Part shown: positions 16,206 to 34,468 of the stretch, one piece after another
Layout of the letters: every line of letters begins with the position of its first letter
Position numbering within the stretch: the stretch's first letter is position 1
Source of the DNA: an uncultured Trueperaceae bacterium
Lineage (GTDB): Bacteria; Deinococcota; Deinococci; Deinococcales; Trueperaceae
DNA length: 64,000 nucleotides
NCBI GenBank assembly: GCA_963727505.1
Contig: CAVSGP010000015.1
Span: 32,001 to 96,000, forward strand
Direction of reading: 5' to 3'
Notes under the pieces: generated by a model
What the model saw: only the letters and a program-made list of their open reading frames with translations
Database searches by the model: none
Told to the model about the DNA's origin: nothing
Made by a program: the position numbers and the translations under genes

Positions 16206-16715
16206 TCAGCGCCACTCCCCGGCGTACTCGAGACGCAGCGGCTGCACCTCGCGCGCCCAGAAGTCGTAGTGCAGCTTGGCGATCTGCCGCACGTGCAGCA
16301 GGTCGTGGGCCACCCAGGCCGCGAGCAGCTCGCCGGCGCTGCGGCCGGTGGGCGAGACGACCCGCAGATCGGGGGACTCCAGAGTGCCGAGCCACGCCAG
16401 CGAGGCTCGGCGCTCGACCACGAAGCTCTCCAGCGAGGGCTCCAGCTCGCGCTCGTTGTAGCGGCGCTCGACGACCCAGCGAGGCGGGTCGATCGGAGCC
16501 ACGGGCTCGTCCGGCCGTTCCAGCAGGTGCCGGAAGCGGTCGCGGAAGTCCTCGCGTTCCTCGTCGTACAGGTGGTTGACGACCTCCACGATCGACCACC
16601 GCTCCGGGCCCGGCTTCCAGCGCGCCTGCGCGTCGCTCACGCCCTTGACGAGATCCTGGATCACCTGCACGGTGGCGGCCAGGCGGGCCGCGGCGCTCTC
16701 AACGGTCACGGACAT
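16206..16715 (-). CDS. DinB family protein
   Basis: WSIVEVVNHL.DEE and HDLLHVRQI metal-binding His motifs. Confidence 0.88.
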   Translation of the reverse strand: MSVTVESAAARLAATVQVIQDLVKGVSDAQARWKPGPERWSIVEVVNHLYDEEREDFRDRFRHLLERPDEPVAPIDPPRWVVERRYNERELEPSLESFVVERRASLAWLGTLESPDLRVVSPTGRSAGELLAAWVAHDLLHVRQIAKLHYDFWAREVQPLRLEYAGEWR

Positions 16716-16952
16716 CGTGGACGCAGTCTAGCCCGGCGGACCGCCGGTGCCGCGCCGCCAACGCTGCATTCCTGCCATGCCGGCGCCGTGCCGGACCGGG
16801 CGCGTCCTCACCGCGATCGCACCGGCACCCGCAGTACGCACCCGGAGTACCATGACCCCAACGCGACCCGCGCGCCCAGTACGCCACCGATCTTGGCCGA
16901 GAGGGCGCCGGCATCGCGGACCACCACACCTGGGAGGGGGTCGACCCTGGCC

Positions 16953-18473: not shown

Positions 18474-19909
18474 TGCGCCGCGCCCTGGCGCTGGCACGGA
18501 CCGCGCTCGCCCTGGCGGCACTGGCGGCCCTGGCGCCGGCACGGACCGCGCAAGCGCAACCCGCGAGCTGGCCGGATCCGACCGCCATGACCTTCCCGCC
18601 CATCCAGTTCCAGGCCCCCGCCCCCCAGAAGGCCGTGCTCTCCAACGGCATCACCGTCTACCTGGCCGAGGATCACGCGCTGCCGCTGGTGCGCGGCGTG
18701 GCCTACGTGGAGGCGCCCAGCGTCTACGACCCGCCCGGCAAGACCGGGCTGGCGAGCTTCACCGCCCAGCTGCTGCGTGACGGCGGTGCCGGCGGGCGCA
18801 CGCCCGACGCCATCGACGAGCAGCTGGCGTACCTGGGCGCGTCGGTCGAGGCGAGCTCGTCCGATGTCTACGCCGCCGTGTCGTTCTCCGCCCTGGCCAG
18901 CAACGTCGATCAGGTGCTGCCCCTGTGGCAGGACGTGCTCACCAGGCCCGACTTCGCACAGGGGCGCATCGACATCGAGCGCCAGCGCCAGCTCGAGGCG
19001 ATCCGGCGGGTGGTGGACAACCCGGTGCAGCTCGCGGTGCGCGAGTTCTCCTACCGCGTCGCCGAGGGGCACCCGTCGGGCGCCTATCCCACCGCCGACA
19101 CCATCGACGCCATCCAGCGCAGCGACCTCGTCGCCTTCCACGACGCCTACTACGCGCCGGCCTCGACGGTGGTGGCCATCACCGGCGACTTCGACGCCGC
19201 GCAGATGCTCGGGACGCTCGAGGCCACGCTGGGGACCTGGCGGCACCCGCTGAAGAGCGCGCCGCAGCTCCCCGCGTTCAACCAGCACCCCACGCCGAAG
19301 GTCTACTTCGTGCAGAAGGACGTGCAGCAATCGATCATCCTGGTCGGCCAGCCGGCCATGAAGGCCTACACCCCGAGCTACAACGCCTTCACCGTCGCCA
19401 ACCAGATCCTCGGCGCCGGCGGCTTCACCAGCCGGCTGTTCACCGACATCCGCACCAAGCGCGGCCTGGCCTACAGCACCGGCTCGCAGCTCACCCAGGG
19501 CTTCGACTACCCGGGCACCTTCCTGACCTACGCCTTCACCCGCGCCGACGCCACCGGCCAGGTGCTGCACCTGCTCCTGGACGAGATCGGCCGCCTGGGC
19601 ACGGACGGCGTGACACCCGCCGAGGTGGCGCAGGCGCGCGAGCAGATCGTCAACCAGGCGCTGTTCCGTGACACCTCGGTGGCGGCCACCACCGAGCGCA
19701 CCGCCCGGGTCCAGCTCCTCGGTCTACCCGACGGCTACTTCCAGACCTTCCTGAACACGGTCCAGGGCATCACCCCGGCCGAGGTGCAGGCCGCGGCGAA
19801 GCAGGTCCTCGACCCCAGCGGCCTGGTGATCATGGTGGTGGGCAACGCCAGCGCCTTCGACGAACCGCTGAGCGACTTCGGGGTCGTGGAGAGCATCCCG
19901 CTGCAGTAG
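18473..19909 (+). CDS. Exported M16 family peptidase, non-catalytic partner subunit
   Basis: LSNGITVYLAEDHALP, no HxxEH, SRLFTDIRTKRGLAYS; overlaps the upstream stop codon. Confidence 0.9.
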   Translation: MRRALALARTALALAALAALAPARTAQAQPASWPDPTAMTFPPIQFQAPAPQKAVLSNGITVYLAEDHALPLVRGVAYVEAPSVYDPPGKTGLASFTAQLLRDGGAGGRTPDAIDEQLAYLGASVEASSSDVYAAVSFSALASNVDQVLPLWQDVLTRPDFAQGRIDIERQRQLEAIRRVVDNPVQLAVREFSYRVAEGHPSGAYPTADTIDAIQRSDLVAFHDAYYAPASTVVAITGDFDAAQMLGTLEATLGTWRHPLKSAPQLPAFNQHPTPKVYFVQKDVQQSIILVGQPAMKAYTPSYNAFTVANQILGAGGFTSRLFTDIRTKRGLAYSTGSQLTQGFDYPGTFLTYAFTRADATGQVLHLLLDEIGRLGTDGVTPAEVAQAREQIVNQALFRDTSVAATTERTARVQLLGLPDGYFQTFLNTVQGITPAEVQAAAKQVLDPSGLVIMVVGNASAFDEPLSDFGVVESIPLQ

Positions 19910-20127: not shown

Positions 20128-20252
20128 TGGTGGTATGCGCCTGAGTACCCATAACGAGGCGAACAACCTTGCATCCGGGGCATTTGTCCCACTATGGTTG
20201 GGGGGTATTTGAAACCTTAAGGCTTGATGAAGCCGCGAACGGGAGGCAATCG

Positions 20253-22277
20253 ATGGCTGACAAGCGGACCCCCGATCAGACCGGTCTCGACGTGCTGTGG
20301 CGAGAGGAGGACTACTTCCACCCCTCTGCCAAGTTCATCGGGCAGGCGAACCTCACCGACCCGTCGATCTTCGACCGCTTCGCGCTCGAGAACATCCCCG
20401 AGGCGTTCCGCGAGTACGCCGACCTCCTCAGCTGGGACAAGTACTGGACCCAGACCATCGATACCAGCGATCCGCCCTTCTGGAAGTGGTTCGTCGGAGG
20501 GCGTCTGAACGCGGCGTACAACTGCGTCGACCGCCATCTCGAGAGCAGCCGCAACAAGACGGCCATCCATTTCGTGGCCGAGCCCGAAGAAGAAGCCATC
20601 CAGCACATCACCTACCAGGAGCTGTGGGTGCGCGTCAACGAGTTCGCAGCCCTGCTCAAGGACATGGGGCTGAAGGCCGGCGACCGCGTCACCATCCACA
20701 TGCCGATGGTCCCCGAGCTGCCCATCACCATGCTGGCGTGCGCACGACTGGGCGTCATCCACTCGGTGGTGTTCGGCGGCTTCAGCGGCAAGGCCGCGGC
20801 CGAGCGCGCCGAGGACTCGCAGAGCCGGCTCCTCATCAGCATGGACAGCTACTGGCGCGCCGGCAAGCTCCTCGACCACAAGGAGAAGGCCGACATCGCC
20901 TACGACGAGGCCGAGAAGCTGGGGCACAAGCTCGAGGCGGTGCTGGTCTGGCAGCGCTACCCGGGCAAGTACTCGAGCCCCACGGCCCTGGTGAAGGGCC
21001 GCGACGTGGTCGTCAACGAGCGCCTGGAGGCGCTGAAGGGCAAGCGCGTCAAGGCGGTCTCCATGCCGGCCGAAGCGCCGCTGTTCCTGATGTACACCAG
21101 CGGCACCACCGGGCGCCCCAAGGGCATGCAGCACTCCATCGGCGGCTACCTCTCCTACGTCACCGGCACCTCCAAGTTCATCCAGGACATCCAGCCCGAA
21201 GACGTCTACTGGTGCATGGCCGACATCGGCTGGATCACCGGTCACTCCTACATCGTCTACGGGCCGCTGTCCCTGGGCGCCTCCTCGGTGATGTACGAGG
21301 GCGCGCCGACCTTCCCCGACCCCGGCCGCCCCTGGCGCATCGCTCAGGAGCTCGGCGTCACCATCTTCCACACCTCCCCCACCGCGGTGCGCTCGCTGCG
21401 CAAGGTGGGGCCCGACGAGCCCGCCAAGTACGAGTTCCACTTCAAGCACATGACCACCGTGGGCGAACCGATCGAGCCCGAGGTGTGGCGCTGGTACTAC
21501 GACACCGTCGGCAAGAAGGAAGCCGTCATCGTCGACACCTGGTGGCAGACCGAGACGGGCGGATTCCTGTGCAGCACCACGCCCGCGCTGCACAAGATGA
21601 AGCCCGGCAGCGCCGGCCCGGCCGTCGCCGGCATCCACCCGATCGTCTACGACGACGACGGCAACGTGGTGCCGATGGGCTCCGGCCGCGCCGGGAACAT
21701 CTGCATCCAGAACCCCTGGCCGGGCCTGGCGCAGACCATCTGGGGACAGCCCGAGCGCTTCGTGGAGACCTACTTCGCGCGCTACTGCAAGGACCGCAGC
21801 AGCACCGACTGGCGCGACTGGCCGTACATGGCCGGCGACGCCGCCATGCAGTCCGCGGACGGCTACTACCGCATCCTGGGCCGCATCGACGACGTCATCA
21901 ACGTGGCCGGGCACCGCCTCGGCACCAAGGAGATCGAGTCCGCTGCGCTGACCGTCAAGGAGGTCGCCGAAGCCGCCGTGGTGGCGGCCAAGGACGAGAT
22001 CAAGGGCGTGGTGCCCGAGCTCTACGTCTCGCTCCAGCCCGGCTACGAGCCCTCGAAGGCGTTGCAGGACAAGATCATCCAGGCGGTCGCGACCGAGCTC
22101 GGCCCGATCGCCAAGCCCCGGAAGGTCTGGATCGTGTCCGATATGCCGAAGACCCGTTCGGGCAAGATCATGCGCCGCGTGCTGCGTTCGCTGAGCGATC
22201 ACGGCGAAGCGGGCGACGTCACTACTCTGGCCAATCCCGAGGTCGTCGAGGCGATCCGCACCCAGGTGAAAGAGTGA
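20253..22277 (+). CDS. acs: Acetate--CoA ligase (AMP-forming acetyl-CoA synthetase)
   Basis: YTSGTTGRPKG, ADIGWITGHSY, DTWWQTETGG, GRIDDVINVAGHRLG, PKTRSGKIMRR; SD GGGAGG. Confidence 0.96.
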   Translation: MADKRTPDQTGLDVLWREEDYFHPSAKFIGQANLTDPSIFDRFALENIPEAFREYADLLSWDKYWTQTIDTSDPPFWKWFVGGRLNAAYNCVDRHLESSRNKTAIHFVAEPEEEAIQHITYQELWVRVNEFAALLKDMGLKAGDRVTIHMPMVPELPITMLACARLGVIHSVVFGGFSGKAAAERAEDSQSRLLISMDSYWRAGKLLDHKEKADIAYDEAEKLGHKLEAVLVWQRYPGKYSSPTALVKGRDVVVNERLEALKGKRVKAVSMPAEAPLFLMYTSGTTGRPKGMQHSIGGYLSYVTGTSKFIQDIQPEDVYWCMADIGWITGHSYIVYGPLSLGASSVMYEGAPTFPDPGRPWRIAQELGVTIFHTSPTAVRSLRKVGPDEPAKYEFHFKHMTTVGEPIEPEVWRWYYDTVGKKEAVIVDTWWQTETGGFLCSTTPALHKMKPGSAGPAVAGIHPIVYDDDGNVVPMGSGRAGNICIQNPWPGLAQTIWGQPERFVETYFARYCKDRSSTDWRDWPYMAGDAAMQSADGYYRILGRIDDVINVAGHRLGTKEIESAALTVKEVAEAAVVAAKDEIKGVVPELYVSLQPGYEPSKALQDKIIQAVATELGPIAKPRKVWIVSDMPKTRSGKIMRRVLRSLSDHGEAGDVTTLANPEVVEAIRTQVKE

Positions 22278-22364
22278 CCGGTGCAACCGTGACGCTAGAG
22301 CGAAGGCCTCGGTGATGGGGGCGACCGCCGTGCCCAGCGGAGGCGCCGTAAGGAGGCGGATCGG

Positions 22365-22946
22365 ATGAACGCAAAGCTCGCCAACCCTGCACCGCTAGGC
22401 CTTGCAGGCTTCGCATTCACCACCTGGATGCTCAGCATGATCAACGTCGGCTGGTTCGACGCCAAGAGCATGGGACTGGTGATCGCCCTGGCGCTGGCCT
22501 ACGGCGGCACGGCACAGATGGTCGCCGGCGTCCTGGAATTCCCGCGCGGCAACACCTTCGGCACCGTGGCGTTCTTCTCCTACGGCTCGTTCTGGTGGTC
22601 GTTCGCCCTGTTCGTGTTCTTCTTCGGGACCGGCGTTTCGGGAGCCTTCGTCGGCTGGTACCTCTTCGTGTGGGGCGTCTTCACCTTCTACATGTGGATC
22701 GCGAGCATGAAGGCCAATACCGCGCTGATGCTGGTGTTCCTGGCGCTGTGGATCACCTTCCTGTTCCTGGCGCTGGGCGAGTGGGGCCTCACCGCCTTCC
22801 ACACCATCGGCGGCTACGTGGGCCTGATCACCGCCGTGCTGGCGTTCTACCTGTCCGCGGCAGAAGTCATCAACGAGTCCTACGGCCGCACCGTGCTGCC
22901 CATCTCGGGCGGCGCGTCCGCGCAGAAGGCGGCGGCCGGGGACTGA
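22365..22946 (+). CDS. satP: Acetate uptake transporter, GPR1/FUN34/YaaH (SatP) family
   Basis: LANPAPLGLAGF, YGG.AQ, GNTFG..AF.SYG.FW; directly downstream of acs. Confidence 0.92.
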   Translation: MNAKLANPAPLGLAGFAFTTWMLSMINVGWFDAKSMGLVIALALAYGGTAQMVAGVLEFPRGNTFGTVAFFSYGSFWWSFALFVFFFGTGVSGAFVGWYLFVWGVFTFYMWIASMKANTALMLVFLALWITFLFLALGEWGLTAFHTIGGYVGLITAVLAFYLSAAEVINESYGRTVLPISGGASAQKAAAGD

Positions 22947-23117: not shown

Positions 23118-24596
23118 CTAGCGCTCGCCGACCTCCTCGAAGGCAACGCGCCGACCGTCCACCCGGAAGACGTTCCCCTCGATGCGCTCGATCCGTGGCT
23201 CGCCGACGAGCCACGCCGCCAACGCCTTGCGCTCGTCGGGGTCCAGCCAGGCCGGCGGGTCGGAGCAACCCTTGAAGCCCGCCACCAGGCCCAGATCCTG
23301 GAGGGCGCCTCGCTGCTCCGGCGTGAGCAGGTCGTAGCGCGAGCGGAAGAACGCCACGTCGGGGTCGGTATGCACCAGCGGACGCAGCCACAGCCGCGCG
23401 ACGCTGGTACGGATCGCGCCGCGCGCCGCAGGCCCCGTCGGGTCGTGGAGCAGCAGCCGGCGGTCCTCGTTGTCCCAGTACGGCGCCGTGTCCGGGCCGA
23501 CGCGAAGTCCGTCGGCCAGGCCGAGCGAGGCCAGCACCGGAGCCCCGCAGGCCAGCAGGTAGGCGTCCTCGCCGCAGGCCGCGCGCACCAGCGCCAGCGC
23601 CTCGCGGTAGGCCCGCTCGCGCCCCATCGGCCGGTGGCGCACGCCGGGCAGGGCGGCGGCGTACAGGAAGTCCAGCTTGAGCAGATCGAAGCCCCAGCCG
23701 CGGGCCCGCCGCACGGTCGCCTCGAGCCACACCCGCACCTCGGGATGCGTGGTGTCGAGGGCGTGGAAGGGCCCACCCCAGTTCACGCCCGCCGGCACCG
23801 GCTCGCCGGAAGCGTCGCGCAGCAACCAAGACGGATGGTCGCGGTGGAGGCGGCTGCCCGGGCGCGCGATGAACGGCGCCAGCCACAGCCCGGGCGTGAC
23901 ACCGGCGGCGCGGATGCGCGTCGCCAGGCTCTCCATGCCGGAGCCGAAGGCGTCGTTGGGCTCCCAGTCGCCGATGGCCCGCTGCCAGCCGTCGTCGATC
24001 TGGAAGGCGTCGAAGGCCAGCTCCCCCAGTCCGTCGAGGACCTCGAGCAGGGCGTCTTCAGAGATGTCGCGGTAGAAGCCGTACCAGCTCGACCACAGGC
24101 GCGGCGCGGCGGAGGCGCCGCGGCGCCCGAAGCGCTCGGCGAGCCGCTCGGCGTAGGCGCCGAACACCTCCGCCTCCGTTCCGAAGGCCACGAACCAGTC
24201 CCCCGGGCCCTGCTCGTAGCCACCCTCGATCCCGCGTGCGTCGGCCTCGACGCGAGCTTCCAGCTCGAGCGCGCCGAGCAGCAGCACGCCGTCGGCCGTG
24301 GCGAGGGCGCCCACCCCGCTGCCGCCGTGGCGGATGGCCTCGGCGTAGCGCGGGTCCTCCCCTTGCGGGCGGCGCGAGGGAGGCTCGATGGCGCGTACCG
24401 GCTCGGTGAGCTCGAGCCAGCGCGCCTCGCTCCAGCTCTGCCAGCCGTGCCGGTAGAAGCGCGTGGCGCCGCCGCCGGCCAGGGCGATCCGCTCGGCGCG
24501 GACCCGGAAGCCTCCCGTCACCGGCTCGGCGCCGGACGGCAGCTCGGCCGGGCCGAGCCTCACGGGCGCTTCCTCATCGGGGTCGCTCACCGGCAT
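23118..24596 (-). CDS. Glycoside hydrolase family 36 (alpha-galactosidase-like)
   Basis: HGWQSWS, WSSWY, FQIDDGWQ, GLWLAPF, LKLDFLY, LRVGPD. Confidence 0.9.
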   Translation of the reverse strand: MPVSDPDEEAPVRLGPAELPSGAEPVTGGFRVRAERIALAGGGATRFYRHGWQSWSEARWLELTEPVRAIEPPSRRPQGEDPRYAEAIRHGGSGVGALATADGVLLLGALELEARVEADARGIEGGYEQGPGDWFVAFGTEAEVFGAYAERLAERFGRRGASAAPRLWSSWYGFYRDISEDALLEVLDGLGELAFDAFQIDDGWQRAIGDWEPNDAFGSGMESLATRIRAAGVTPGLWLAPFIARPGSRLHRDHPSWLLRDASGEPVPAGVNWGGPFHALDTTHPEVRVWLEATVRRARGWGFDLLKLDFLYAAALPGVRHRPMGRERAYREALALVRAACGEDAYLLACGAPVLASLGLADGLRVGPDTAPYWDNEDRRLLLHDPTGPAARGAIRTSVARLWLRPLVHTDPDVAFFRSRYDLLTPEQRGALQDLGLVAGFKGCSDPPAWLDPDERKALAAWLVGEPRIERIEGNVFRVDGRRVAFEEVGER

Positions 24597-24635
24597 CGCT
24601 CACCGGCATCGCTCACCGGCATCGCTCATCGGCAT
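24584..24635 (+). repeat. 13-nt tandem repeat CGCTCACCGGCAT x4 over the start of the GH36 gene
   Basis: Copies at 24584, 24597, 24610 and 24623 (last has one mismatch). Confidence 0.9.
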
Positions 24636-25130
24636 CGGGGTGTGCACGACCCCAGTCTACGGAGTGCCGCAGCAGGAACACAGCAGGGGCGCAGCAGGAA
24701 CACAGCAGGGCCGCAGCAGGGCCGACCAAACAGGGCCGAAGGAACAGGACCGAACGAACAGGACCGCGAGAACAAGGGGCACCGCGGCCCCGCCCTGCGA
24801 ACCCGCCCCGCGAACCCGCCCCGCGAACCCGCCCTGCGAACCGGGCCGCCGAAGCCTTGTTAAGGACCTAACCGCACCCCCTGTCTCGATGGGGTACCTT
24901 GCTCGCTGCCTCCCTCTGCGGAGGCCCCCAATCGATGGCCGCGGCGGCAAGAGAGCCCCGCACCATCACCCACGCCCCCTTCCGAGGGGTCTGGAGCGCG
25001 CAGCGGCCCCCCACGCTGCGCGCTCCGTTTTCGGGTCCCTCGGGCCCGGGGCCTGCCCGGGGCCTGCCCGGGGCGGCGAACGCCGGCGCCGCGGCCGCCT
25101 GGGCCCCGCGCCGCGCGATAGACTGGCTCC

Positions 25131-27209
25131 ATGGAAGCTGGGGCGGAGAAGCGGGAGGCGGACGCCGCCGACCGTACCCAAGCGTCCCCTTCACCTCCGA
25201 GCGCAGGCGCACCCGCCATCATCAACCTCAAGCGACAGTTGTACCTGTTCCTGCTGCCGGCGCTCGCGGTCGTGACGCTGGTCACCGGGCTGCTCGGCGC
25301 GCCTGGCTCCTACGATCGCCTCGTCCTGCCCATGCTCAGCGTCGTCCTTCTGGTGACGTTGCTGTTGGTGTCGTTCCGATGGGTCCAGCCGCGTCACTTG
25401 GAAGCAGCCCTCTTCAGCGTGTTCGCGGTGACCTACCTGAGCAAGCTGGGGGCCAGCCTCGCCGCCGGCACCACCGACCAGATCTTCGTGTGGACGCCCC
25501 TGCTGTACGCGCTGGCGTTCCTGCTGTTCGAGCCGTTGCCGGCGCTGCTCACCTCGGCGGGCGTGCTCACCGCATCGCTCGTTGTGACGGTGGCCGTGGC
25601 ACATCTCGCGCCGATCCCGGTGCGCAGCTTGTTCGAGTTCTACCTCGCGAACGTCCTACTCGTCCAGATCATCTACGGCATGGCCCGGCTGCGGAGCAAC
25701 GTCGCGTCCCTGCAGCGCGAGCTCCTGGACATGCAGCTGCTCGCCCATCAGGACATCCTGACGCGGCTCCCCAACCGCCGCGCGCTGCAGGACACCCTCG
25801 CCCAGGCGATCGCGTTGGCCGAACGCCGAATGCAGGGCGTGGCCGTCATCCTCTTCGACCTCGACGACTTCAAACGCGTCAACGACGAGCACGGCCACGA
25901 CGCCGGAGACCGCATCCTTCGCGATGTGGCGACCCGGGGCGAGAGCGTCCTGCGGCGCCCCGACACCCTGGGGCGCTGGGGCGGAGAGGAGTTCCTGGTC
26001 ATCGCGCCGGGGATCGACCTGCCCGGGGCCATGCGGGTGGCGGAGCGCCTGCGGGCGGCCCTCGGCTCCCACCCGTTCGGCGGCGTCGGAGCGGTGACGG
26101 CGAGCTACGGGGTGACGACCTACCACCCGGGCGACACCGCAGAGACGCTCCTGAAGCGCGCCGACGACGCGCTCTACCTCGCCAAGCAGAGCGGCAAGGA
26201 CCGGGTCGAGGCGCTGGTGCGCGAGAGGGTCCAGCACGTGGTGCTGCCCGTCCTCGCCCGTCCCTTCCCGCCATTGGAGCGCGACACCGACCAGCTCCAG
26301 CGCGACACCCTGACGTGGCTGAAGGACTTCGAGGTGGCCCCCTCCGAGACGCTCTACCGCTGGGTGGCGGCGGTGCAGCCCGGTTGGCTCGCCGGTCACA
26401 TGCAGCGCAGCAACGACGCCACCCGGCTGCAGATCGTGTCGGACTGGACGTTCTGGATGTTCCTGCACGACGACCACTGCGACACCAGCGCCGCCGGACG
26501 CCATCCCCGCTACCTGATCGACCTGCACCAACGCCTGCTCGGGGTTCTGGCCGGCGACGCGGCCGAGCCGCAGGACGGCGCCCTGGCGACGCTGCTGGCG
26601 GACCTGCGCGATCGCCTGGCGGTCGCCGGCGGCGACGACGCCGTCCCGCGCTTCGCCGACGCCACCGATCGCTACTTCGCGGCCACCCGCTGGGAGGCGG
26701 CCAACCGCGCGAGCAACACCACGCCCGACCTGGAGACCTACGAGCGCATGCGCCTGCTGACCAGCGGCCTGCCCGTGCACACGGTCCTGCTGGAGACCCT
26801 CGACGACGTGCCGGTGTCCGACCAACCGCTGGCGAAGGCTCTCTATGCAGCGGCCGATCGCGCCGTGTGCTGGGCGAACGACATCTACTCGCTGAACAAG
26901 GAGGTCCAGGAGGAGGACGTCCACAACCTGGTGGTCGCCCTGCAGGCGAGCCACCACCTGGGCCTCGACGACGCCCTCGAGCGCGCCGCCCGCATGCACG
27001 ACGAGCAGGTCGCGCGCTACCAGCAGCTCCGCGCCACGGTCGACGAGCAGGAAGGCCCGGAGCGCGAGGCCCTGGAAACCATCGCGCAGGCGCTGGAGGC
27101 GCGCATGGGCGCCAACGTGGCCTGGTCCGAGCGCTGCAGCCGCTACCGGGCCGCCGTCACCGTGCGGGTGGAGCCGGAGACCGAGGCGGTTCCCAAGGCT
27201 TCCGACTGA
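25131..27209 (+). CDS. Membrane-anchored diguanylate cyclase (GGDEF) fused to a class I terpene synthase domain
   Basis: About 5-6 N-terminal TM helices; DILTRLPNRR, FDLDDFKRVND, RRPD-x5-GGEEF (25980-25994), RADDALYLAK; then DDHCD (26469-26483), YERMRLLTSG, NDIYSLNKE (26877-26903), WSERCSRY (27123-27146). Confidence 0.9.
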   Translation: MEAGAEKREADAADRTQASPSPPSAGAPAIINLKRQLYLFLLPALAVVTLVTGLLGAPGSYDRLVLPMLSVVLLVTLLLVSFRWVQPRHLEAALFSVFAVTYLSKLGASLAAGTTDQIFVWTPLLYALAFLLFEPLPALLTSAGVLTASLVVTVAVAHLAPIPVRSLFEFYLANVLLVQIIYGMARLRSNVASLQRELLDMQLLAHQDILTRLPNRRALQDTLAQAIALAERRMQGVAVILFDLDDFKRVNDEHGHDAGDRILRDVATRGESVLRRPDTLGRWGGEEFLVIAPGIDLPGAMRVAERLRAALGSHPFGGVGAVTASYGVTTYHPGDTAETLLKRADDALYLAKQSGKDRVEALVRERVQHVVLPVLARPFPPLERDTDQLQRDTLTWLKDFEVAPSETLYRWVAAVQPGWLAGHMQRSNDATRLQIVSDWTFWMFLHDDHCDTSAAGRHPRYLIDLHQRLLGVLAGDAAEPQDGALATLLADLRDRLAVAGGDDAVPRFADATDRYFAATRWEAANRASNTTPDLETYERMRLLTSGLPVHTVLLETLDDVPVSDQPLAKALYAAADRAVCWANDIYSLNKEVQEEDVHNLVVALQASHHLGLDDALERAARMHDEQVARYQQLRATVDEQEGPEREALETIAQALEARMGANVAWSERCSRYRAAVTVRVEPETEAVPKASD

Positions 27210-27378
27210 GCAACCCCGCCGGAGCAACACGGCGCGACGGCCACTGCCCCGGGGACCCCTGCCCGATCCTGCCCGAGTCCCTCCCGCCGAGCCTCACCCG
27301 CCCCGAGCCTCACCCGCCTGAGCGCCCCGCGCGGGTCGCCCCCCGATCCAGACGAGGCACGCAACCGAACGAAGGCAA

Positions 27379-27413
27379 CGGAAGGGGGGCGCCCATCGGG
27401 CGCCCCCCTTCCG
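27379..27413. terminator. Probable bidirectional terminator hairpin between convergent genes
   Basis: CGGAAGGGGGGCGCCC-ATC-GGGCGCCCCCCTTCCG, perfect 16-bp stem. Confidence 0.75.
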
Positions 27414-27459
27414 CCCCCCGTAGCTTCCGGGGGCCGATCTGACGTTGCTCAGGCGTTCG

Positions 27460-28959
27460 CTACTGCGTCACCTTGAAGGCGAAGCGGAAGTGGAACTTGT
27501 GGGGGTGATCCTGCCAGGTGAGCACGGCCTGGCGGTACAGGAAGGGCTGCTCCTCGACCGCGCTGTAGTCCTTGTTTCGGTAGAACGACGGGTACAGGTC
27601 GATGTAGTGCCAGCCGGGCGCCCAGCTCGCAGTGACGGGCACGACCACATCGCCGTTGGTACTGAAACCGCAGCCATATCCCAGGTAAGTGTTGTCGATG
27701 ACGACGGCGAAGATGTTGGTGGTCTGGGTCCATCCCAGGCCCTTGACGTGGATCGTGATCTTGGTGCCGACCGGCCCTTCGGACGGCTGCAGCGGGAGCG
27801 CGACGACGCCGATGTCGAAGTGCGTGCTGGCCACGACCTTGTCACCGACCATGGCCTGGAGCCGGTGCTCGCCGCCGAGGGCGTCGGGGTACTGGAAGGG
27901 GAGGTCGAAGGCGCCGCTGGCGTCCGTCTTCACCGTCTTCACGGGCACGGTGGCCGCCGAGTAGAGCGACTCCGTCACGCGCGACCCACTCATGGTGGAG
28001 AAGGCGAGCGCTACGTCGCTGTTGGCAGGGAGGTCGCGACCGTGGATCTGCGCGTCGGCGAAGACACCGGCATGCTTGGGGTCGACCCACAGCTTCGGCC
28101 CGCTCGTGCTGGGCTCAGCACCGGCGATCGGCGCCTGGCTCTGCTGCTCGATCGGCTTGGGCATCACGGGCGCGCCGTCGGTGACCGTGAACATGAACTG
28201 CGGCTCGGGCAGGAAGCCGTACGGCGAGGAGGCGAGCGCCAGGTAGGGCGCGTCGAAGGGCGAGTTGCGAAGCTCGACGAGGTGCTTGCCGACCCTTCCC
28301 GTGGCCGGGATCACGAAGTTGGCCGTGCCGTGCGTCTCGACGGCGGTGATGAAACCCGTGATGGCGTTGTCGTAGGTGAGGGCGTACCAGCCAGCGATGT
28401 TGTTGATCGAGTCGATGCCGGTAACGGTCATGTGGATGTCCGTACCGACGGGTCCACTGTCCGGCGACATGGTGGTGTGCATCTGCACGTAGTAGCCGGC
28501 CTTGTTGACGTTGTCGCCGTTCTCCTGCACGTAGATGTCGTGGTTGCCCCCGAAGCCCTCGGGAACGGTGAAGGGAGCTGAGAAGCTACCGTCGGAGCCG
28601 ACCGTCACCGTCGCGAGCGGGACGCTCCGCTGCTCGAACTGGCGTCCCAGGAAGTTGCCGGTGTAGTCGCCGTCCTTCATCTCGAGCTTCCACTGGCCAT
28701 CGAAGGCAGCCCATACGACGTTCAGGCTGGCGCCGGACTCGAAGCCCGAGCCCGTCAGCGTCGCCTGCGATCCGACGATGCCCTTGGCGGGGGTCACCTG
28801 GACCTCACCCTTGAGGCCGTTGGGGAAGGTGGCCTGGCTGGTGGCCGCGTTGCCCTGGGCGAAGGCTGCCGCCAGGATCGTCGCGATGGCCAGTAGCAAT
28901 ACCGCACGTCCGGCCGTATCGAGGGCGTTTCTCAGGGGCTTGCGAAGGTTCCGTACCAT
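27460..28959 (-). CDS. Exported beta-rich protein with repeated Ig/IPT-like modules and a GYGCGF Cys motif
   Basis: Signal peptide (...AAAFA|QG); repeated P..GPVGT.I...V.G and T.....G.F...F..P...GG.H units; ATG 28959 after GGAG. Confidence 0.75.
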   Translation of the reverse strand: MVRNLRKPLRNALDTAGRAVLLLAIATILAAAFAQGNAATSQATFPNGLKGEVQVTPAKGIVGSQATLTGSGFESGASLNVVWAAFDGQWKLEMKDGDYTGNFLGRQFEQRSVPLATVTVGSDGSFSAPFTVPEGFGGNHDIYVQENGDNVNKAGYYVQMHTTMSPDSGPVGTDIHMTVTGIDSINNIAGWYALTYDNAITGFITAVETHGTANFVIPATGRVGKHLVELRNSPFDAPYLALASSPYGFLPEPQFMFTVTDGAPVMPKPIEQQSQAPIAGAEPSTSGPKLWVDPKHAGVFADAQIHGRDLPANSDVALAFSTMSGSRVTESLYSAATVPVKTVKTDASGAFDLPFQYPDALGGEHRLQAMVGDKVVASTHFDIGVVALPLQPSEGPVGTKITIHVKGLGWTQTTNIFAVVIDNTYLGYGCGFSTNGDVVVPVTASWAPGWHYIDLYPSFYRNKDYSAVEEQPFLYRQAVLTWQDHPHKFHFRFAFKVTQ

Positions 28960-29002
28960 ACTGCGCTCCATTCTTTCAGTCGGGCCAGCGGCCCGCAGGG
29001 CG

Positions 29003-30528
29003 TCACTCCGTGACCGTGAAGACGTAGCGGAAGTGGAAGGGTGTTGGGGTGGTCGTGCCAGGTGAGCGTGGCCTGGCGGTAGAGGAAGGGCTGCTCGTCG
29101 GCCGCCCCGTAGTCGTTGTTGCGGTAGAAGGACGGGTAGAGGTCGATGAAGTGCGGGCCCGGCGCCCAGCTGGCAGCGATCGGGCACGATCACATCGCCG
29201 TTGGTGCTGAAGCCGCAGGCGTAGCCGTAGAAGGTGTTGTCGATCACCACGCGCGAAGATGTTGTTGGTCTGGGTCCAGCCGATACCCTTGACGTGGAGC
29301 GTGGATGGCGGTACCGACCGGCCCCTCGGCCGGCTCGAGCGGCAGCCCGACCGCCTGGATGGTGAAGTGCGCGGTCGCAACGACTGGTCGCTGTTCACCT
29401 TGGCCTCGAGCCGGTGCTGGCCACCGAGCGCGTCGGGGATCGGGAAGGGCGTGTCGAAGGCGCCCTCGGCGTCGGTGGTGACCGTCTTGAACGGCACCGT
29501 GGTCGCCTGAGTAAACCGGCCGCCGTGACCCGCGAACCGCTCATCTCGGTGTAGGCGAGCGTCCACGCTCGGCGTCGGCGGGCAGGCCGCGGCCGTGTAC
29601 CTGGGCGTCGCCGAAGACGCCGGCCGCCTCGGGATCGACCCACAGCTGGGGGCCGTCACGCGCTGGGCTCGGCGCCGGGCGACCGCCGGCGGCTCCTGCT
29701 GGGCGATGGGCGCGGGCATCACCGGCGCACCGTCGGTCACGGTGAAGATGAACTGTGGCGAGGGCAGCTTGGCGTAGGGGGATGAGGTGAGCGCGAGATA
29801 GGGCTGTCCGAAGGGCGACCTGAGCAGCTCGATGACGTGCTTTCCCACGCGGCCGGTGGCGGGGATGACGACGTCGGCGGTGCCGTGCGTGGTGACGGCG
29901 GTGATGAAGCCGGTGTTGGTGCTGTCGTAGAGTGACGCCATACCAGCCGGAGATGTTGTTGAGGTCGGTCGAGGCCGGTGACGTGTGAGGGTGATGTCGG
30001 AACCGAGCGGGACCGCTCTGGGGCGTCATTGTGGCGTGCATGCGGACGCTAGAAGCCGGACTTGTTGATGTTGGTCGCCGTTCTCGCGCACGTAGATGTC
30101 GTGCGTCCCGCCGAAGCCCTCGGGCACGAGAATGGGTAGCTGAGAAGCTTCCGTCCGAGCCGACCGTCACCGTGGCGAGCGGGACCGAGCGGCTGATGGA
30201 ACTGACGGCCGAGGAAGTTGCCGGTCGTACTCGCCGTCCTTCATCTCCAGCTTCCAGCTGCCGTCGAAGGCGCCCCATACGACGTTCGAAGCTGGCCCCG
30301 GCGTCGAAGCCGGAGCCCTGCAACGTCGCCTGCGATCCGACGAAGCCCTTGGCTGGGGGCCACCTGGAGTTCGCCCTTGAGGCCGTTCGGGAAGGTCAAT
30401 TGGCTGGTGGCAGCACTGCCCTGCGCCGAGGCGCTGGCGAACAACATGCCGACGGCCAGGAAGAGTACCGCTAGCAGGGTGCGGGCACCCATACGGGTTC
30501 CACGAATGCTTGTGTTCACGAGTTCCAT
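29003..30528 (-). pseudogene. Tandem paralog of 27460-28959 broken by many frameshifts (pseudogene or sequencing error)
   Basis: Fragments TFPNGLKGELQV, SVPLATVTVGSDGSFSA, GFITAVTTHGTA..VIPATGRVGKH, PDALGGQHRL, GYACGFSTNGDV, FHFRYVFTVTE are spread across all three minus frames. Confidence 0.85.
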
Positions 30529-32233: not shown

Positions 32234-34468
32234 TCAGCCCTCCTCGTACAGCGCCAGGAACGCCTCCACCACGGCGGGATCGAAGTGGCGCCCGGCCTCC
32301 CCACGGATGTGGTCGATGGCCTCGTCGTGGGTCCACGCCGCCCGGTAGGGGCGATCGCTGGTGAGCGCGTCGTACACGTCCGCCACCGCGAAGATCCGGG
32401 CGGAGAGAGGGATCGCGTCGCCCGCCAGGCCGAGGGGGTAGCCCGACCCGTCCCAGCACTCGTGGTGGGCGGCCGGGATGGCCAGAGCGGGATTCAGGAA
32501 ATCGATCGGCGCCAACAGGTCGGCGGCGTAGATGGTGTGCTGCCGCATGCGCCCCCACTCCTCGTCGGTCAACGGGCCGGGCTTCTGCAGGATGGCGTCA
32601 GGCACGCCCATCTTGCCGATGTCGTGGAGCAGCGCGCCGCGCCGGACGTGAACGAGATCCTCCTCGGAGAGCCCCATCTCGCGCGCGAGGCGCAACGTCA
32701 GCTCGGTGACCCGGCGCGAGTGCCCCTCGGTCTCCTTGTCGCGCAGGTCGAGCGCGCGCGACCACCCCTCGATGGTGGCGTCGTAGGCGACGCGCAACTC
32801 CCGGTTCCTGGTCGCCAGATCCGACACCAGCGCGGCGTTGTCGATGAGGATGGCCCCCTGCGTCGCCACGGTGGTGAGGAACTCCGTCCAGTCGTCGCCG
32901 ACGTCGAGCGGGCTGCGGTGCGCCACCACCAGGCCGCCGCGCAGGCCGCCGCGGGCGCGCATCGGCGTGGCCGCGAGCAACTCGAGGCGCTGCCCGTCGA
33001 CGGCCGCCCCCATACGCAACGCGCCCTCGATCTGCTCCCGCCCTCGCACCACATAGGGCTCGCCGTGGCGCATCGCGCGCCCCACCAACCCGGTGCCCGC
33101 CGGCAGCCGCTGCGCCTCCAGCGGGAAGGTGCCTCCCTGCGCCTCGATCAGCTCCAGCGCGGCTCCGTCCGCCGTCGTCACGTACACCGCGGCCACGTCG
33201 ACCCCGAGGCCCGCACGGGCGGCCTCCACGAAGGCCGCCACCGCCGCTCGGAAGTCGGCGCCGGCCGTGATCGCCGCGTCGATCCGGCGCAGGGTCATCA
33301 GGCGCTGCACCTGCGTCTCCAGGTCGCGGTTGAGCGTTCGAATGCTCTCGCGGGCTCGCGCCTGCTCGGTGACGTCGCGCTTGGCCGCCACGAAGTGTTC
33401 GATCGTGCCGTGCGGGCCGATGACGGGCGTGATGCTCATCGCCTCCCGGTACTCGCTGCCGTCCTTGCGCCGGTTGATGAGCTCTCCGCTCCACGGCTCC
33501 CCCGCGGTGATGGTCTCCCACAGGGGGCGGTAGAAGTCCGCCCCCTGCCGGCCGGACCCCAGCATGCGTGTGTGCGACCCCACCAGCGCGTCCTCGTCGT
33601 AGCCCGTGAGGCTCAGCGCGTGCGGGTTCGCCCACTCGATGGTGCCCCCGGGGTCGGTCACGACGATGCCCACCGGAGCGGCTCGCAGGGCGGTGAGCTG
33701 GAGCCGGAGCCGCGCCTCGCCCTCCTCCTCCCGGGTCCGGTCGATGAGCGTGCCCACCACGGTGCGTTCCCCTTCGAGCGTCACCACCTGCTCCAGCACC
33801 TCCACCGGCACCACGGACCCGTCCCGACGCAGGCCCCGGAAGCGGAAGCGTCGGGATTCGTCCGCATCCGGGTGCGAGCTTGCCATCGCTTCGTCGGCCC
33901 AGGGCTGGTCGTCCGGGTGCACCACGTCGCCCGGACGGAGCCGGTCGATGACCTCCTCGGGCGCGTAGTCGAAGATCGTCGCGAAGGCGGCGTTGACGTA
34001 GGCGAAGCGCCCGTCCCGGATGGAGTAGGTGCCGGCCAGCGTGTTGGCCGCGATCTGCTCAAGCCGCCGCTCGCTGATCCGGAGCTCGTGCTCGAGCGCC
34101 CGGCGCCGCTCGAAGGCGGCCGCGAGCTGGCGGTCGCGGCGCCGGAAGAGCCCGACGGCGACGCCGAACGCAACCGTGACGAGCGCCGTCGGGAACCCCG
34201 GCAGCGCCAGGCGTGAGAAGGGAGCGCCGTGGTCGATCATCGACACGGTCAGGACCGAGTGGAGCAGCAGCGCGACCAGCGCCGCGGCGACCCCGCCCGC
34301 CACCCCGAACAACCAGGCCGCAAGCGTCACCGGCAGCAGCATGAGGGCCGCGGTGTTCATGGCCAGGGACGGTTCCAGCGCGACGAACGCCAGGACATAG
34401 ACGACGAAGCCCCCGATCACGGAGGCGACCTCCCCGGCGGTCCGCCTGTGCCTGCGCATCATCGACAA
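32234..34468 (-). CDS. Membrane-bound PAS-PAS-GAF-HD-GYP c-di-GMP phosphodiesterase
   Basis: N-terminal TM helices, two PAS domains, GAF, GHSRRV, LHDIGK, HHECWDGSGYPLGL. Confidence 0.9.
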   Translation of the reverse strand: MSMMRRHRRTAGEVASVIGGFVVYVLAFVALEPSLAMNTAALMLLPVTLAAWLFGVAGGVAAALVALLLHSVLTVSMIDHGAPFSRLALPGFPTALVTVAFGVAVGLFRRRDRQLAAAFERRRALEHELRISERRLEQIAANTLAGTYSIRDGRFAYVNAAFATIFDYAPEEVIDRLRPGDVVHPDDQPWADEAMASSHPDADESRRFRFRGLRRDGSVVPVEVLEQVVTLEGERTVVGTLIDRTREEEGEARLRLQLTALRAAPVGIVVTDPGGTIEWANPHALSLTGYDEDALVGSHTRMLGSGRQGADFYRPLWETITAGEPWSGELINRRKDGSEYREAMSITPVIGPHGTIEHFVAAKRDVTEQARARESIRTLNRDLETQVQRLMTLRRIDAAITAGADFRAAVAAFVEAARAGLGVDVAAVYVTTADGAALELIEAQGGTFPLEAQRLPAGTGLVGRAMRHGEPYVVRGREQIEGALRMGAAVDGQRLELLAATPMRARGGLRGGLVVAHRSPLDVGDDWTEFLTTVATQGAILIDNAALVSDLATRNRELRVAYDATIEGWSRALDLRDKETEGHSRRVTELTLRLAREMGLSEEDLVHVRRGALLHDIGKMGVPDAILQKPGPLTDEEWGRMRQHTIYAADLLAPIDFLNPALAIPAAHHECWDGSGYPLGLAGDAIPLSARIFAVADVYDALTSDRPYRAAWTHDEAIDHIRGEAGRHFDPAVVEAFLALYEEG

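What the first reader, a model, noticed from the sequence alone, without database searches (positions are those of the whole stretch)
25131..27209. Diguanylate cyclase-terpene synthase fusion protein
Seen: one uninterrupted 692-aa ORF with TM helices, a GGDEF domain with intact GGEEF and an RxxD I-site five residues upstream, a linker of about 10 aa, and a full class I terpene cyclase domain (DDxxD = DDHCD, sensor Arg in RMRLLTSG, NSE/DTE = NDIYSLNKE, WxxxxxRY = WSERCSRY). Known: these are the catalytic motifs of bacterial mono/sesquiterpene cyclases and of active DGCs. I am not aware of a characterised fusion of the two. Inference: terpene production is directly coupled to c-di-GMP signalling. 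Either c-di-GMP or dimerisation gates the cyclase, or the cyclase domain senses prenyl diphosphate and controls the DGC. No prenyltransferase or tailoring gene is adjacent. A possible internal GTG at 26238 with a weak SD might also give a free cyclase.
Basis: partly seen in the sequence, partly recalled or inferred. Interest (0 to 1): 0.85.

Follow-up and report, generated by a model that had tools for sequence, protein, structure and literature searches.

The report
Diguanylate cyclase fused to terpene synthase
One membrane protein, kept intact in a small group of Deinococcus-related bacteria, joins an enzyme that makes the signalling molecule c-di-GMP to an enzyme that makes a sesquiterpene; I found no description of this pairing, and it may tie cell signalling directly to terpene production.

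Summary
Window 25131-27209(+) is one 692-aa ORF (GC3 0.93). It holds six hydrophobic helices, a stalk helix, a GGDEF domain (Pfam E 5e-42), an 11-residue tether and a complete class I terpene synthase (Pfam E 7e-41).

- **Junction:** contigs of independent metagenome runs cross it without an indel.
- **Conservation:** 30 relatives (36-91% identity) share the architecture. In 29 aligned members GGEEF, DDxCD, the sensor Arg, NDxxSxxxE and RY are invariant, and the I-site RxxD is kept in 27 of 29.
- **Distribution:** in 364 genomes of the phylum the terpene-synthase domain occurs in 22. It is in frame with GGEEF in 20, cut by contig ends in one, and an unrelated weak hit in one.
- **Rarity:** among 1.84 billion representatives only 6 cover both domains.
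- **Closest enzyme:** (+)-T-muurolol synthase (model TM 0.89-0.90), so FPP is the likely substrate.
- **Context:** a divergent P450 in one genus. PAS-GGDEF-EAL genes lie directly upstream in three genomes of another genus, and an HD-GYP gene lies 5 kb away here.

The most likely reading is a bifunctional membrane enzyme. Allosteric coupling between the domains is inferred, not shown. Seven full-text searches found no description of such a fusion. I rate it a new variant of known kinds, interest 0.68.

The parts
25131..27209 (+). Whole ORF, 692 aa plus stop: 6-TM module, stalk, GGDEF, tether, class I terpene synthase.
25131..25211 (+). N-terminal tail, residues 1-27. Low confidence and poorly conserved (mean pairwise identity 0.17).
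25212..25619 (+). Membrane module, residues 28-163, five of the six hydrophobic helices. L42, P43, L66, P67, K105, W121 and P123 are invariant. The module is shared with a family of stand-alone 339-423-aa membrane GGDEF proteins. It is not a recognised Pfam family for this protein.
25620..25742 (+). Sixth helix running on as a cytoplasmic stalk helix into the GGDEF domain (residues 164-204). E169 is invariant in the fusions but Gln in 29 of 44 stand-alone relatives.
25743..26213 (+). GGDEF diguanylate cyclase domain, residues 205-361.
25953..25964 (+). I-site RxxD (R275-R-P-D278), five residues before GGEEF. R is kept in 29 of 29 and D in 27 of 29.
25980..25994 (+). Active-site GGEEF (284-288), invariant in 29 of 29.
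26214..26246 (+). Tether, residues 362-372. The sequence varies (identity 0.26) but the length is nearly fixed across the family. It holds the in-frame GTG 26238 (V370).
26247..27152 (+). Class I (alpha-fold) sesquiterpene-synthase-like domain, residues 373-674.
26469..26483 (+). Asp-rich motif DDHCD (447-451). D447, D448, C450 and D451 are invariant.
26751..26753 (+). R541, aligned with the pyrophosphate-sensor R175 of (+)-T-muurolol synthase. Invariant.
26877..26903 (+). NSE triad NDIYSLNKE (583-591). N, D, S and E are invariant.
27141..27146 (+). RY pair (671-672), invariant.
32234..34468 (-). Context, not part of the protein: a PAS-GAF-HD-GYP gene (HDIGK, HHE and GYP motifs), a candidate c-di-GMP phosphodiesterase 5 kb downstream. 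It is syntenic in the same-genus genome G330.

Best explanation
The gene encodes a bifunctional inner-membrane enzyme.

**Layout.** A six-helix membrane module and a long stalk helix carry a catalytically competent GGDEF domain into the cytoplasm. An 11-residue tether of nearly fixed length links it to a complete class I sesquiterpene cyclase.

**Proposed working.**
1. As in other diguanylate cyclases, two subunits pair, and the membrane module and stalk set how the two GGEEF sites meet. This is inferred from established GGDEF mechanism and from structural likeness to coiled-coil-linked cyclases.
2. The GGDEF pair turns 2 GTP into c-di-GMP and is feedback-inhibited at the RxxD I-site. This is inferred from the motifs.
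3. The C-terminal domain ionises farnesyl diphosphate, which is made by a polyprenyl synthase encoded elsewhere. It releases a cadinane- or muurolane-type sesquiterpene at the inner face of the membrane. This is inferred from homology; the product is unknown.
4. The fusion makes the two outputs co-expressed, co-localised and equimolar. Most likely the state of the GGDEF domain (GTP or c-di-GMP bound, paired or immobilised) also tunes the cyclase through the short tether. That would resemble the way GGDEF domains regulate EAL domains placed at the same C-terminal position. Step 4 is the least supported.
For: **Shown.**
- One intact ORF with both domains far above Pfam cut-offs.
- The junction is crossed without an indel by contigs from 2 studies.
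- 30 relatives at 36-91% identity carry both Pfam domains.
- In the 29 full-length ones aligned, these residues are 29 of 29:
  - GGDEF side: D243, D245, K248, N251, D252, D260, R282 and GGEEF.
  - Terpene synthase side: DDxCD, R526, R541, NDxxSxxxE and RY.
  - The I-site D278 is 27 of 29.
- Both domains are well conserved: mean pairwise identity 0.58 for GGDEF and 0.49 for the terpene synthase.
- The GGDEF domain aligns with PleD residue for residue at the DxD...NDxxGHxxGD, RxxD and GGEEF stretches.
- The terpene synthase domain aligns with (+)-T-muurolol synthase (E 6e-47) at its DDQCD, R175, NDVLSYPKE and RY.
- The AlphaFold2 model has mean pLDDT 85.9 and superposes on that enzyme at TM 0.89-0.90, rmsd 2.1 A over 302 columns.
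- The stalk plus GGDEF matches the coiled-coil-linked cyclases IsPadC and DgcB.
- Of 22 phylum genomes with the terpene synthase domain, 20 have it in frame with GGEEF. One is cut by contig ends and one is an unrelated weak hit. No split form was seen.
- The closest stand-alone terpene synthases are at most 40% identical.
- The fusion terpene synthase domains form one clade.

**Context.**
- A divergent cytochrome P450 lies next to the gene in G259 and G257. This fits a real terpene product.
- PAS-GGDEF-EAL genes with intact EALLR and DDFGTG motifs lie directly upstream on the same strand in G042, G075 and G113.
- 7 of 13 loci hold a second GGDEF gene within about 8 kb.
- An HD-GYP gene lies 5 kb away in this window.
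- The genome has two polyprenyl synthases, 21 GGDEF matches and only this one terpene synthase.
- The tether length varies by only about 2 residues across the family.
Against: - There is no biochemical or expression evidence for either activity.
- The model's pTM is only 0.59, so the mutual placement of the domains is not defined.
- The immediate neighbours differ between genera, and no prenyltransferase is nearby. Gene context therefore gives no pathway.
- Two members (P0019, P0020) have lost the I-site Asp, so I-site control cannot be universal.
- Support for one origin of the fusion is moderate (SH-aLRT 80, quick tree).
- The enrichment of c-di-GMP genes near the fusion rests on related genomes, which are not independent.
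- No PilZ receptor was found in this genome, which is 97% complete.
- The product class rests on 33-39% identity, which does not predict terpene products reliably.
Confidence: 0.55

Rival explanations
1. **c-di-GMP-gated cyclase.** The GGDEF domain acts mainly as a receptor through its RxxD I-site. It reads the cellular c-di-GMP pool set by the many other cyclases and phosphodiesterases, and it switches the terpene cyclase on or off. Its own synthesis of c-di-GMP is minor.
For: - The I-site is kept in 27 of 29 members.
- The genome has 21 GGDEF matches.
- PAS-GGDEF-EAL or HD-GYP genes lie beside or near the fusion in several genera.
- No PilZ receptor was found, so other receptor types are expected.
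- The tether is short and of fixed length.
Against: Every active-site residue of the GGDEF domain is invariant, which a pure receptor would not need. Two members lack the I-site Asp. There is no binding data.
Confidence: 0.15
2. **The cyclase domain is a sensor.** It binds a prenyl diphosphate or a terpene and controls the diguanylate cyclase, reporting isoprenoid status to the c-di-GMP network, with little catalytic turnover.
For: Enzyme-derived sensor domains are common in signalling proteins (established knowledge). No prenyltransferase or tailoring gene lies nearby in this window.
Against: - All motifs for Mg binding and diphosphate ionisation are invariant over 36-91% identity: DDxCD, R541, the NSE triad and RY.
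- It is the only Terpene_syn_C_2 gene of the genome.
- A P450 lies divergently next to it in G259 and G257.
- Sensor domains usually lie N-terminal of GGDEF, whereas this one lies C-terminal (established knowledge).
Confidence: 0.12
3. **No mechanistic coupling.** Two independent enzymes became joined once. The fusion persists only because it gives co-expression and membrane tethering of the cyclase.
For: - The sequence of the tether is poorly conserved (identity 0.26).
- Neighbours are not conserved between genera.
- Both halves exist elsewhere as complete stand-alone proteins: 44 membrane GGDEF proteins and 4 terpene synthases among the 150 best representatives.
- pTM of 0.59 gives no fixed interdomain arrangement.
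Against: No split form was seen in the 21 genomes of at least 6 genera that carry the family. The tether length is nearly fixed. K105 and E169 in the membrane module are invariant in the fusions but not in the stand-alone relatives, which suggests adaptation after fusion.
Confidence: 0.15
4. **Artefact.** The ORF is an assembly chimera or a decaying pseudogene.
For: The window comes from a 15-contig assembly. The runs that hold the stretch are metagenomes.
Against: - Contigs from two studies cross the junction without an indel.
- The same architecture is found in 20 other genomes, counting G005, where contig ends cut the gene, and in 30 database proteins.
- GC3 is 0.93 over the whole ORF.
- All motifs are intact.
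Confidence: 0.01

Closest known systems
(+)-T-muurolol synthase of Roseiflexus castenholzii (PDB 9hqd and 9hqi; Rabe et al. 2016, PMC5082573, passages read)
   Same: It is the best solved relative of residues 384-673 (E 6e-47, 164 bits). The model superposes at TM 0.89-0.90, rmsd 2.1 A, 33% identity. All four motifs named in the paper align: DDQCD, R175, NDVLSYPKE and RY.
   Different: That enzyme is a stand-alone soluble protein of about 330 aa. Here the domain is the C-terminal third of a membrane GGDEF protein. At 33-39% identity the product cannot be assumed to be the same.
Stand-alone membrane GGDEF proteins of 339-423 aa with the same six-helix module (uncharacterised; 44 of the 150 best representatives)
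   Same: They share the membrane module, stalk and GGDEF, ending about 77 residues after GGEEF. E91 and W121 are kept in 42 of 44. RxxD is kept in 38 of 44.
   Different: They have no terpene synthase. K105 and E169 are invariant in the fusions, but K is present in only 9 of 44 and the E position is Gln in 29 of 44 of these proteins. None of the 44 matches MASE6 or any other Pfam membrane family at E 0.001 or better.
Coiled-coil-linked diguanylate cyclases: IsPadC (5llw), DgcB (6ttr), PleD (1w25)
   Same: They are the best sequence and structure matches for the stalk plus GGDEF. They share GGEEF and the I-site RxxD at the same spacing.
   Different: Their sensors are a phytochrome, a coiled coil alone, or receiver domains, and nothing follows the GGDEF domain.
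GGDEF-EAL tandem proteins (for example the PAS-GGDEF-EAL genes next to the fusion in G042, G075 and G113)
   Same: A second catalytic domain follows GGDEF after a short linker. In such proteins the GGDEF nucleotide state is known to regulate the C-terminal domain (established knowledge, recalled).
   Different: The C-terminal domain here is a terpene cyclase, not a c-di-GMP phosphodiesterase. No EAL or HD-GYP domain is in the ORF.
Terpene synthases linked to cyclic-nucleotide sensing: 2-methylisoborneol clusters with a cNMP-binding protein, and family 2 encapsulin terpene-cyclase cargo (recalled; NCBIfam NF041168 matched at 76 bits, cut-off 1200)
   Same: They are a precedent for tying bacterial volatile terpene synthesis to nucleotide second messengers.
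   Different: Those are separate proteins or encapsulin cargo using cAMP- or cGMP-type binding domains. None holds a nucleotide cyclase and a terpene cyclase in one polypeptide.

Membership tests
GGDEF diguanylate cyclases (PF00990) | GGDEF domain above the curated cut-off. | tested here: met
   143.8 bits against 23.8. TIGR00254 gives 143.4 against 37.4.
GGDEF diguanylate cyclases (PF00990) | Active-site GG(D/E)EF. | tested here: met
   GGEEF at 284-288, in 29 of 29 members.
GGDEF diguanylate cyclases (PF00990) | Metal- and guanine-binding residues of the PleD type (their roles are recalled). | tested here: met
   DLDDFKRVNDEHGHDAGD aligns with PleD DIDFFKKINDTFGHDIGD. D243, D245, K248, N251, D252 and D260 are 29 of 29.
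GGDEF diguanylate cyclases (PF00990) | Inhibitory I-site RxxD five residues before GG(D/E)EF. This is optional in the family. | tested here: met
   RRPD at 275-278. R is 29 of 29 and D is 27 of 29.
GGDEF diguanylate cyclases (PF00990) | Synthesis of c-di-GMP from GTP by a dimer. | not testable with these tools
   This needs an enzyme assay. A full-length dimer (1384 residues) exceeds the 1000-residue limit of the complex tool.
Named diguanylate cyclase equivalogs (SiaD, PleD, DgcN and others, NCBIfam) | Score above the equivalog cut-off. | tested here: not met
   The best is SiaD, 153.6 bits against 290.
Bacterial class I terpene synthases (PF19086) | Domain above the curated cut-off. | tested here: met
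   140.7 bits against 23.7. 29 of 29 members match.
Bacterial class I terpene synthases (PF19086) | Asp-rich motif DDxxD. | tested here: met
   DDHCD at 447-451 aligns with DDQCD of T-muurolol synthase. D447, D448 and D451 are 29 of 29.
Bacterial class I terpene synthases (PF19086) | NSE triad NDxxSxxxE. | tested here: met
   NDIYSLNKE at 583-591. N, D, S and E are 29 of 29.
Bacterial class I terpene synthases (PF19086) | Pyrophosphate-sensor Arg and C-terminal RY pair. | tested here: met
   R541 aligns with R175. R671-Y672 aligns with the RY pair that the paper numbers 309. All are 29 of 29.
Bacterial class I terpene synthases (PF19086) | All-helical alpha fold. | tested here: met
   The model superposes on 9hr0 and 9hqd at TM 0.89-0.90 and rmsd 2.1 A.
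Bacterial class I terpene synthases (PF19086) | Cyclisation of a prenyl diphosphate, and the identity of the product. | not testable with these tools
   This needs incubation with FPP, GPP and GGPP followed by GC-MS and NMR.
Product-specific sesquiterpene synthase equivalogs (selinadiene, 4-epi-cubebol, isoafricanol, delta-cadinene; NCBIfam) | Score above the equivalog cut-off. | tested here: not met
   83-108 bits against cut-offs of 400-500.
MASE6 membrane sensor domain (PF20966) | Pfam match in the N-terminal module. | tested here: not met
   Residues 1-205 give no family at E 1 or better. 2 of 29 family members match (best 7.3e-7, 29.8 bits against 27.4). 0 of 44 stand-alone relatives match.
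GGDEF-EAL / GGDEF-HD-GYP tandem c-di-GMP enzymes | A phosphodiesterase domain after GGDEF. | tested here: not met
   The ORF has no EAL or HD-GYP match.
Bifunctional prenyltransferase-terpene cyclase fusions | A polyprenyl synthase domain in the same polypeptide. | tested here: not met
   The ORF has no PF00348 match. The genome's two polyprenyl synthases lie on another contig.

The most novel reading that the evidence does not exclude
The protein is a dual-output signal transducer. One membrane sensor sets an intracellular second messenger (c-di-GMP) and, through the nucleotide state of the GGDEF domain, switches a tethered sesquiterpene cyclase. A single stimulus would then produce both an internal signal and a diffusible or membrane-active terpene. 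As far as my searches show, this would be the first terpene synthase controlled post-translationally by a second messenger. The hydrophobic product may also feed back on the membrane module, where K105 and E169 are specific to the fusions.
Probability: 0.3. Interest if true: 0.85.

Novelty: new variant of a known kind. Interest (0 to 1): 0.68.

Why it matters
As far as I recall, characterised bacterial terpene synthases are almost all free-standing soluble enzymes regulated at transcription, and the biological role of most of their products is unknown.

- **For the terpene field.** A conserved fusion to an active-looking diguanylate cyclase on a membrane sensor ties a terpene to a defined signalling pathway. 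It gives a direct test: does GTP or c-di-GMP change cyclase kinetics?
- **For the c-di-GMP field.** This would be an output domain of a new kind, a biosynthetic enzyme placed where EAL domains usually sit. It is a compact example of local signalling. In several genomes a phosphodiesterase gene lies next door.
- **For Deinococcus-group biology.** It points to an unstudied volatile or membrane terpenoid in organisms known mainly for stress resistance.

Tried and rejected
- **Genome-contig scan.** The GGDEF peptide pattern swamped it. None of the 79 loci kept extended past query residue 391, so it gave no context for the fusion. I used the genome search and the fetch from genomes instead.
- **Complex prediction.** GGDEF (198-366) against the terpene synthase (367-676), each with the 29-row alignment, scored 0.00 twice. 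The verdict was 'no answer' and the controls were not run. It carries no weight either way.
- **Full-length or cytoplasmic homodimer prediction.** Not attempted. The full length exceeds the 1000-residue limit, and the piece that fits would lose the stalk.
- **RNA evidence.** No RNA holder was listed. The 8 runs are DNA metagenomes from 2 studies. Expression and the proposed internal start therefore remain untested.
- **Internal GTG 26238.** It is a Val codon with a purine-rich GAGAGGG 8 nt upstream. The aligned residue is Leu in the distant half of the family, so it is not a conserved feature. I set it aside as unsupported, not disproved.
- **MASE6 identity of the membrane module.** Rejected for this protein.
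- **Paralogue of the membrane module in the own genome.** None was found at E 0.01 or better.
- **Earlier findings of this scan.** Nothing was on record for this sequence.
- **Literature.**
  - Seven full-text searches returned no paper on such a fusion, judged from titles and the starts of abstracts. They combined GGDEF, diguanylate or c-di-GMP with terpene synthase or cyclase. One used Deinococcus with terpene synthase, and one looked for the paper behind the T-muurolol synthase structures.
  - One candidate (PMC2447192) was opened and proved irrelevant.
  - Subscription journals and InterPro or CDART architecture tables could not be searched.
Full report
**1. The observation**

Window 25131-27209(+) is a single ATG-to-TGA ORF of 692 codons. 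Its GC by codon position is 0.74/0.45/0.93. That is the coding signature of this 71% GC window, and none of the overlapping shadow ORFs shows it.

Pfam places a GGDEF domain at residues 205-358 (143.8 bits, cut-off 23.8). It places Terpene_syn_C_2 at 438-628 (140.7 bits, cut-off 23.7). NCBIfam agrees at domain level. No product-specific or named equivalog reaches its cut-off.

- RRPD at 275-278, five residues before GGEEF at 284-288.
- DDHCD at 447-451.
- R541.
- NDIYSLNKE at 583-591.
- RY at 671-672.

The stretch between the last GGDEF strand and the first conserved terpene synthase segment (LPxLxxPF) is 11 residues.

The AlphaFold2 model was built on a 29-row alignment and has mean pLDDT 85.9 and pTM 0.59. 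It shows six long helices in residues 28-206, the last running on as a stalk into the GGDEF domain. Their best 19-residue Kyte-Doolittle means are 1.46-2.36, and nothing after residue 200 exceeds 1.09. With six spans, both catalytic domains lie on the N-terminal side. I take that side to be the cytoplasm, because both enzymes use cytoplasmic substrates. I ran no dedicated topology predictor.

**2. Is the junction real?**

Eight DNA metagenome runs from two studies hold the stretch. Contigs of four of them were laid on 24600-27500.
- X3 record 18 covers 26047-26592 without a difference.
- X1 and X2 cover 26108-26399 with overlapping records.
- No insertion or deletion lies inside the ORF.
- One run may be the source of the window.

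The stronger argument is comparative and follows in section 3.

**3. Relatives**

*Word-indexed search of 5.8 billion proteins.* Of the 120 best hits listed, P0001 and 30 others (P0002-P0031, 36-91% identity) carry both PF00990 and PF19086. The other 89 have GGDEF without a terpene synthase. The source names among the 30 are:
- 'diguanylate cyclase (GGDEF)-like protein [Deinococcus metalli]';
- 'terpene synthase family protein [Deinococcus sp.]';
- 'diguanylate cyclase, partial [Deinococcales bacterium]';
- for two JGI records, 'diguanylate cyclase (GGDEF)-like protein' with no organism named.

The proteins are therefore deposited but named after one half only.

*Alignment.* I aligned 29 of the 31, leaving out the partial P0008 and P0012. 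The following are 29 of 29:
- GGDEF side: D243, D245, K248, N251, D252, D260, R282 and GGEEF.
- Terpene synthase side: DDxCD, R526, R541, N583, D584, S587, E591, R671 and Y672.

The I-site Asp is 27 of 29. Mean pairwise identity is 0.39 for the membrane part, 0.58 for GGDEF, 0.26 for the tether and 0.49 for the terpene synthase. The tether's length varies by only about two residues.

*Exhaustive HMMER search of 1.84 billion representatives.* Six proteins cover both domains (360-996 bits), and then the scores drop to 224 bits. With HMMs built from my own alignment, the 150 best split as follows:
- 6 fusions;
- 4 stand-alone terpene synthases of 324-335 aa;
- 44 stand-alone proteins of 339-423 aa with the same membrane module plus GGDEF;
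- 96 other GGDEF proteins.

A search restricted to short proteins found no close free terpene synthase. The 88%-identical P0270 sits on a 1216-bp contig and is a fragment. The other 31 hits are 29-40% identical.

*Tree.* A quick maximum-likelihood tree used 31 fusion terpene synthase domains and 33 stand-alone ones. I left out the two partial fusions, P0270 and two stand-alone hits under 300 aa. The fusions fall in one clade with SH-aLRT 80. That agrees with one fusion event but does not prove it.

**4. Distribution**

The own genome (3.26 Mb, 15 contigs, 97% complete) has only this one Terpene_syn_C_2 gene. None of the 14 control genomes, which include Deinococcus radiodurans and Thermus thermophilus, has one.

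In 364 genomes of the phylum the terpene synthase domain matches in 22. Leaving out the window's own genome, the counts by family are:

| Family | Genomes with a match |
|---|---|
| f1 (the window's own family) | 12 of 127 |
| f2 | 9 of 125 |
| Four other families | 0 of 111 |

Of the 22 genomes:
- 20 have GGEEF and the NSE triad in the same open frame. One of these, G065, has a frame change near the C-terminus in a 290-contig assembly.
- G005 has the gene cut by two contig ends.
- G316 has an unrelated 315-aa weak hit (E 1e-7).

I found no split pair. The family is therefore patchy, confined to one order, and always fused.

**5. What each part resembles**

*Terpene synthase domain.* Its best solved relative is (+)-T-muurolol synthase of Roseiflexus castenholzii (E 6e-47). 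10-epi-cubebol synthase, selinadiene synthase and others follow.
- The model superposes on the T-muurolol synthase structures at TM 0.89-0.90, rmsd 2.1 A, 33% identity.
- The paper that characterised that enzyme names its DDQCD, R175, NDVLSYPKE and RY, and shows it converts FPP mainly to T-muurolol (PMC5082573, passages read).
- All four features align with the fusion.
- A sesquiterpene from FPP, perhaps of cadinane or muurolane type, is the best guess. The product is unknown.

*GGDEF domain.* It aligns with PleD at the metal and guanine-binding stretch, the I-site and GGEEF. Together with the stalk it resembles the coiled-coil-linked cyclases IsPadC and DgcB.

*Membrane module.*
- It is not a recognised family for this protein.
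- 2 of 29 family members match MASE6 just above its cut-off, and 0 of 44 stand-alone relatives match it.
- The stand-alone relatives share E91 and W121 (42 of 44).
- K105 and E169, invariant in the fusions, are K in 9 of 44 and Gln in 29 of 44 of the stand-alone proteins.
- The own genome has no paralogue of the module.

**6. Context**

*In the window.*
- Upstream lie an acetyl-CoA synthetase, a GPR1/FUN34/YaaH protein and a divergent melibiase-like gene.
- Downstream lies a 596-aa ORF with no Pfam match.
- 5 kb away lies a PAS-GAF-HD-GYP gene with HDIGK, HHE and GYP motifs.
- This arrangement is shared with the same-genus genome G330.

*In other genera.*
- G259 and G257 have a cytochrome P450 divergently adjacent. 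This is the classic bacterial terpene pair.
- G042, G075 and G113 have a PAS-GGDEF-EAL gene of about 1000 aa directly upstream on the same strand, with intact EALLR and DDFGTG motifs.
- G247 has a PAS-GAF-GGDEF-EAL gene convergent and adjacent.
- In all, 7 of 13 loci hold a second GGDEF gene within about 8 kb. From the 21 GGDEF matches in the 3.26-Mb own genome I expect about 0.1 per 16 kb. Related genomes are not independent, so this is only suggestive.

*Elsewhere in the own genome.* Two polyprenyl synthases lie on another contig. No PilZ domain was found.

**7. Reading**

The invariance of every catalytic residue in both domains over 36-91% identity, the P450 neighbour and the phosphodiesterase neighbours make a doubly active enzyme the best reading (0.55). 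In that reading a membrane sensor and stalk control a dimeric GGDEF, and each subunit carries a sesquiterpene cyclase at the membrane.

Three observations hint at functional coupling beyond co-expression:
- The cyclase sits where EAL domains sit in tandem proteins.
- The tether has a nearly fixed length.
- No split form was ever seen.

None of this is tested. A docking attempt gave no answer.

The rivals are:
- a mainly receptor GGDEF that gates the cyclase (0.15);
- a sensor-only terpene synthase domain (0.12);
- no coupling at all (0.15);
- an artefact (0.01).

**8. Novelty**

Both enzyme families are well known. The three-part architecture is not described in any paper that my seven full-text searches reached. 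It is rare (6 of 1.84 billion representatives) and lineage-restricted. I class it as a new variant of known kinds. InterPro or CDART architecture tables and subscription journals could not be checked.

Noticed in passing
window 24583-24842 and 25044-25074: The 535-bp divergent intergenic region upstream of the fusion gene holds five short tandem arrays, with units of 13, 22 (or 11), 14, 13 and 11 nt. Run X1 lacks 11 nt at 25046, which is one unit of the last array. The copy number therefore varies between populations. The first array overlaps the 5' end of the melibiase-like ORF as called from its first start codon.
   Followed up: partly
window 27460-29250 (-): A 596-aa ORF (GC3 0.86) directly downstream and convergent has no Pfam match. 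A 508-aa counterpart sits at the same place in the same-genus genome G330 (L107:10189-11715), also without a Pfam match.
   Followed up: partly
window 32234-34468 (-): A PAS-PAS-GAF-HD-GYP protein of 744 aa with HDIGK, HHE and GYP motifs is a candidate c-di-GMP phosphodiesterase 5 kb from the fusion. It is syntenic in G330.
   Followed up: partly
G000 contig C15:23671-29907 (just before the window's start at 32001): Three further GGDEF-domain genes lie within about 6 kb. The genome has 21 GGDEF matches in 3.26 Mb and no PilZ match.
   Followed up: no
L109:10874-12268 (G259) and L110:6086-7480 (G257): A 464-aa cytochrome P450 lies divergently next to the fusion gene, 64 nt away in both. In G259 another GGDEF-domain ORF follows at L109:12617-14419.
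   Followed up: partly
P0001 residues K105 and E169 (window 25443-25445 and 25635-25637): These two charged residues in the membrane module are invariant in 29 of 29 fusions. In the 44 stand-alone relatives of the module, K105 is K in only 9, and E169 is Gln in 29.
   Followed up: partly
G330 contigs C1:32919-33893 and C9:1168-2142: The same-genus genome G330 shows the fusion twice, with identical scores, on two contigs. This may be a real duplication or an assembly duplicate.
   Followed up: no
window 16044-19909 (+) and 20169-22946 (+): Upstream lie two adjacent M16 (insulinase-type) peptidase genes, then an acetyl-CoA synthetase followed by a GPR1/FUN34/YaaH family membrane protein.
   Followed up: no
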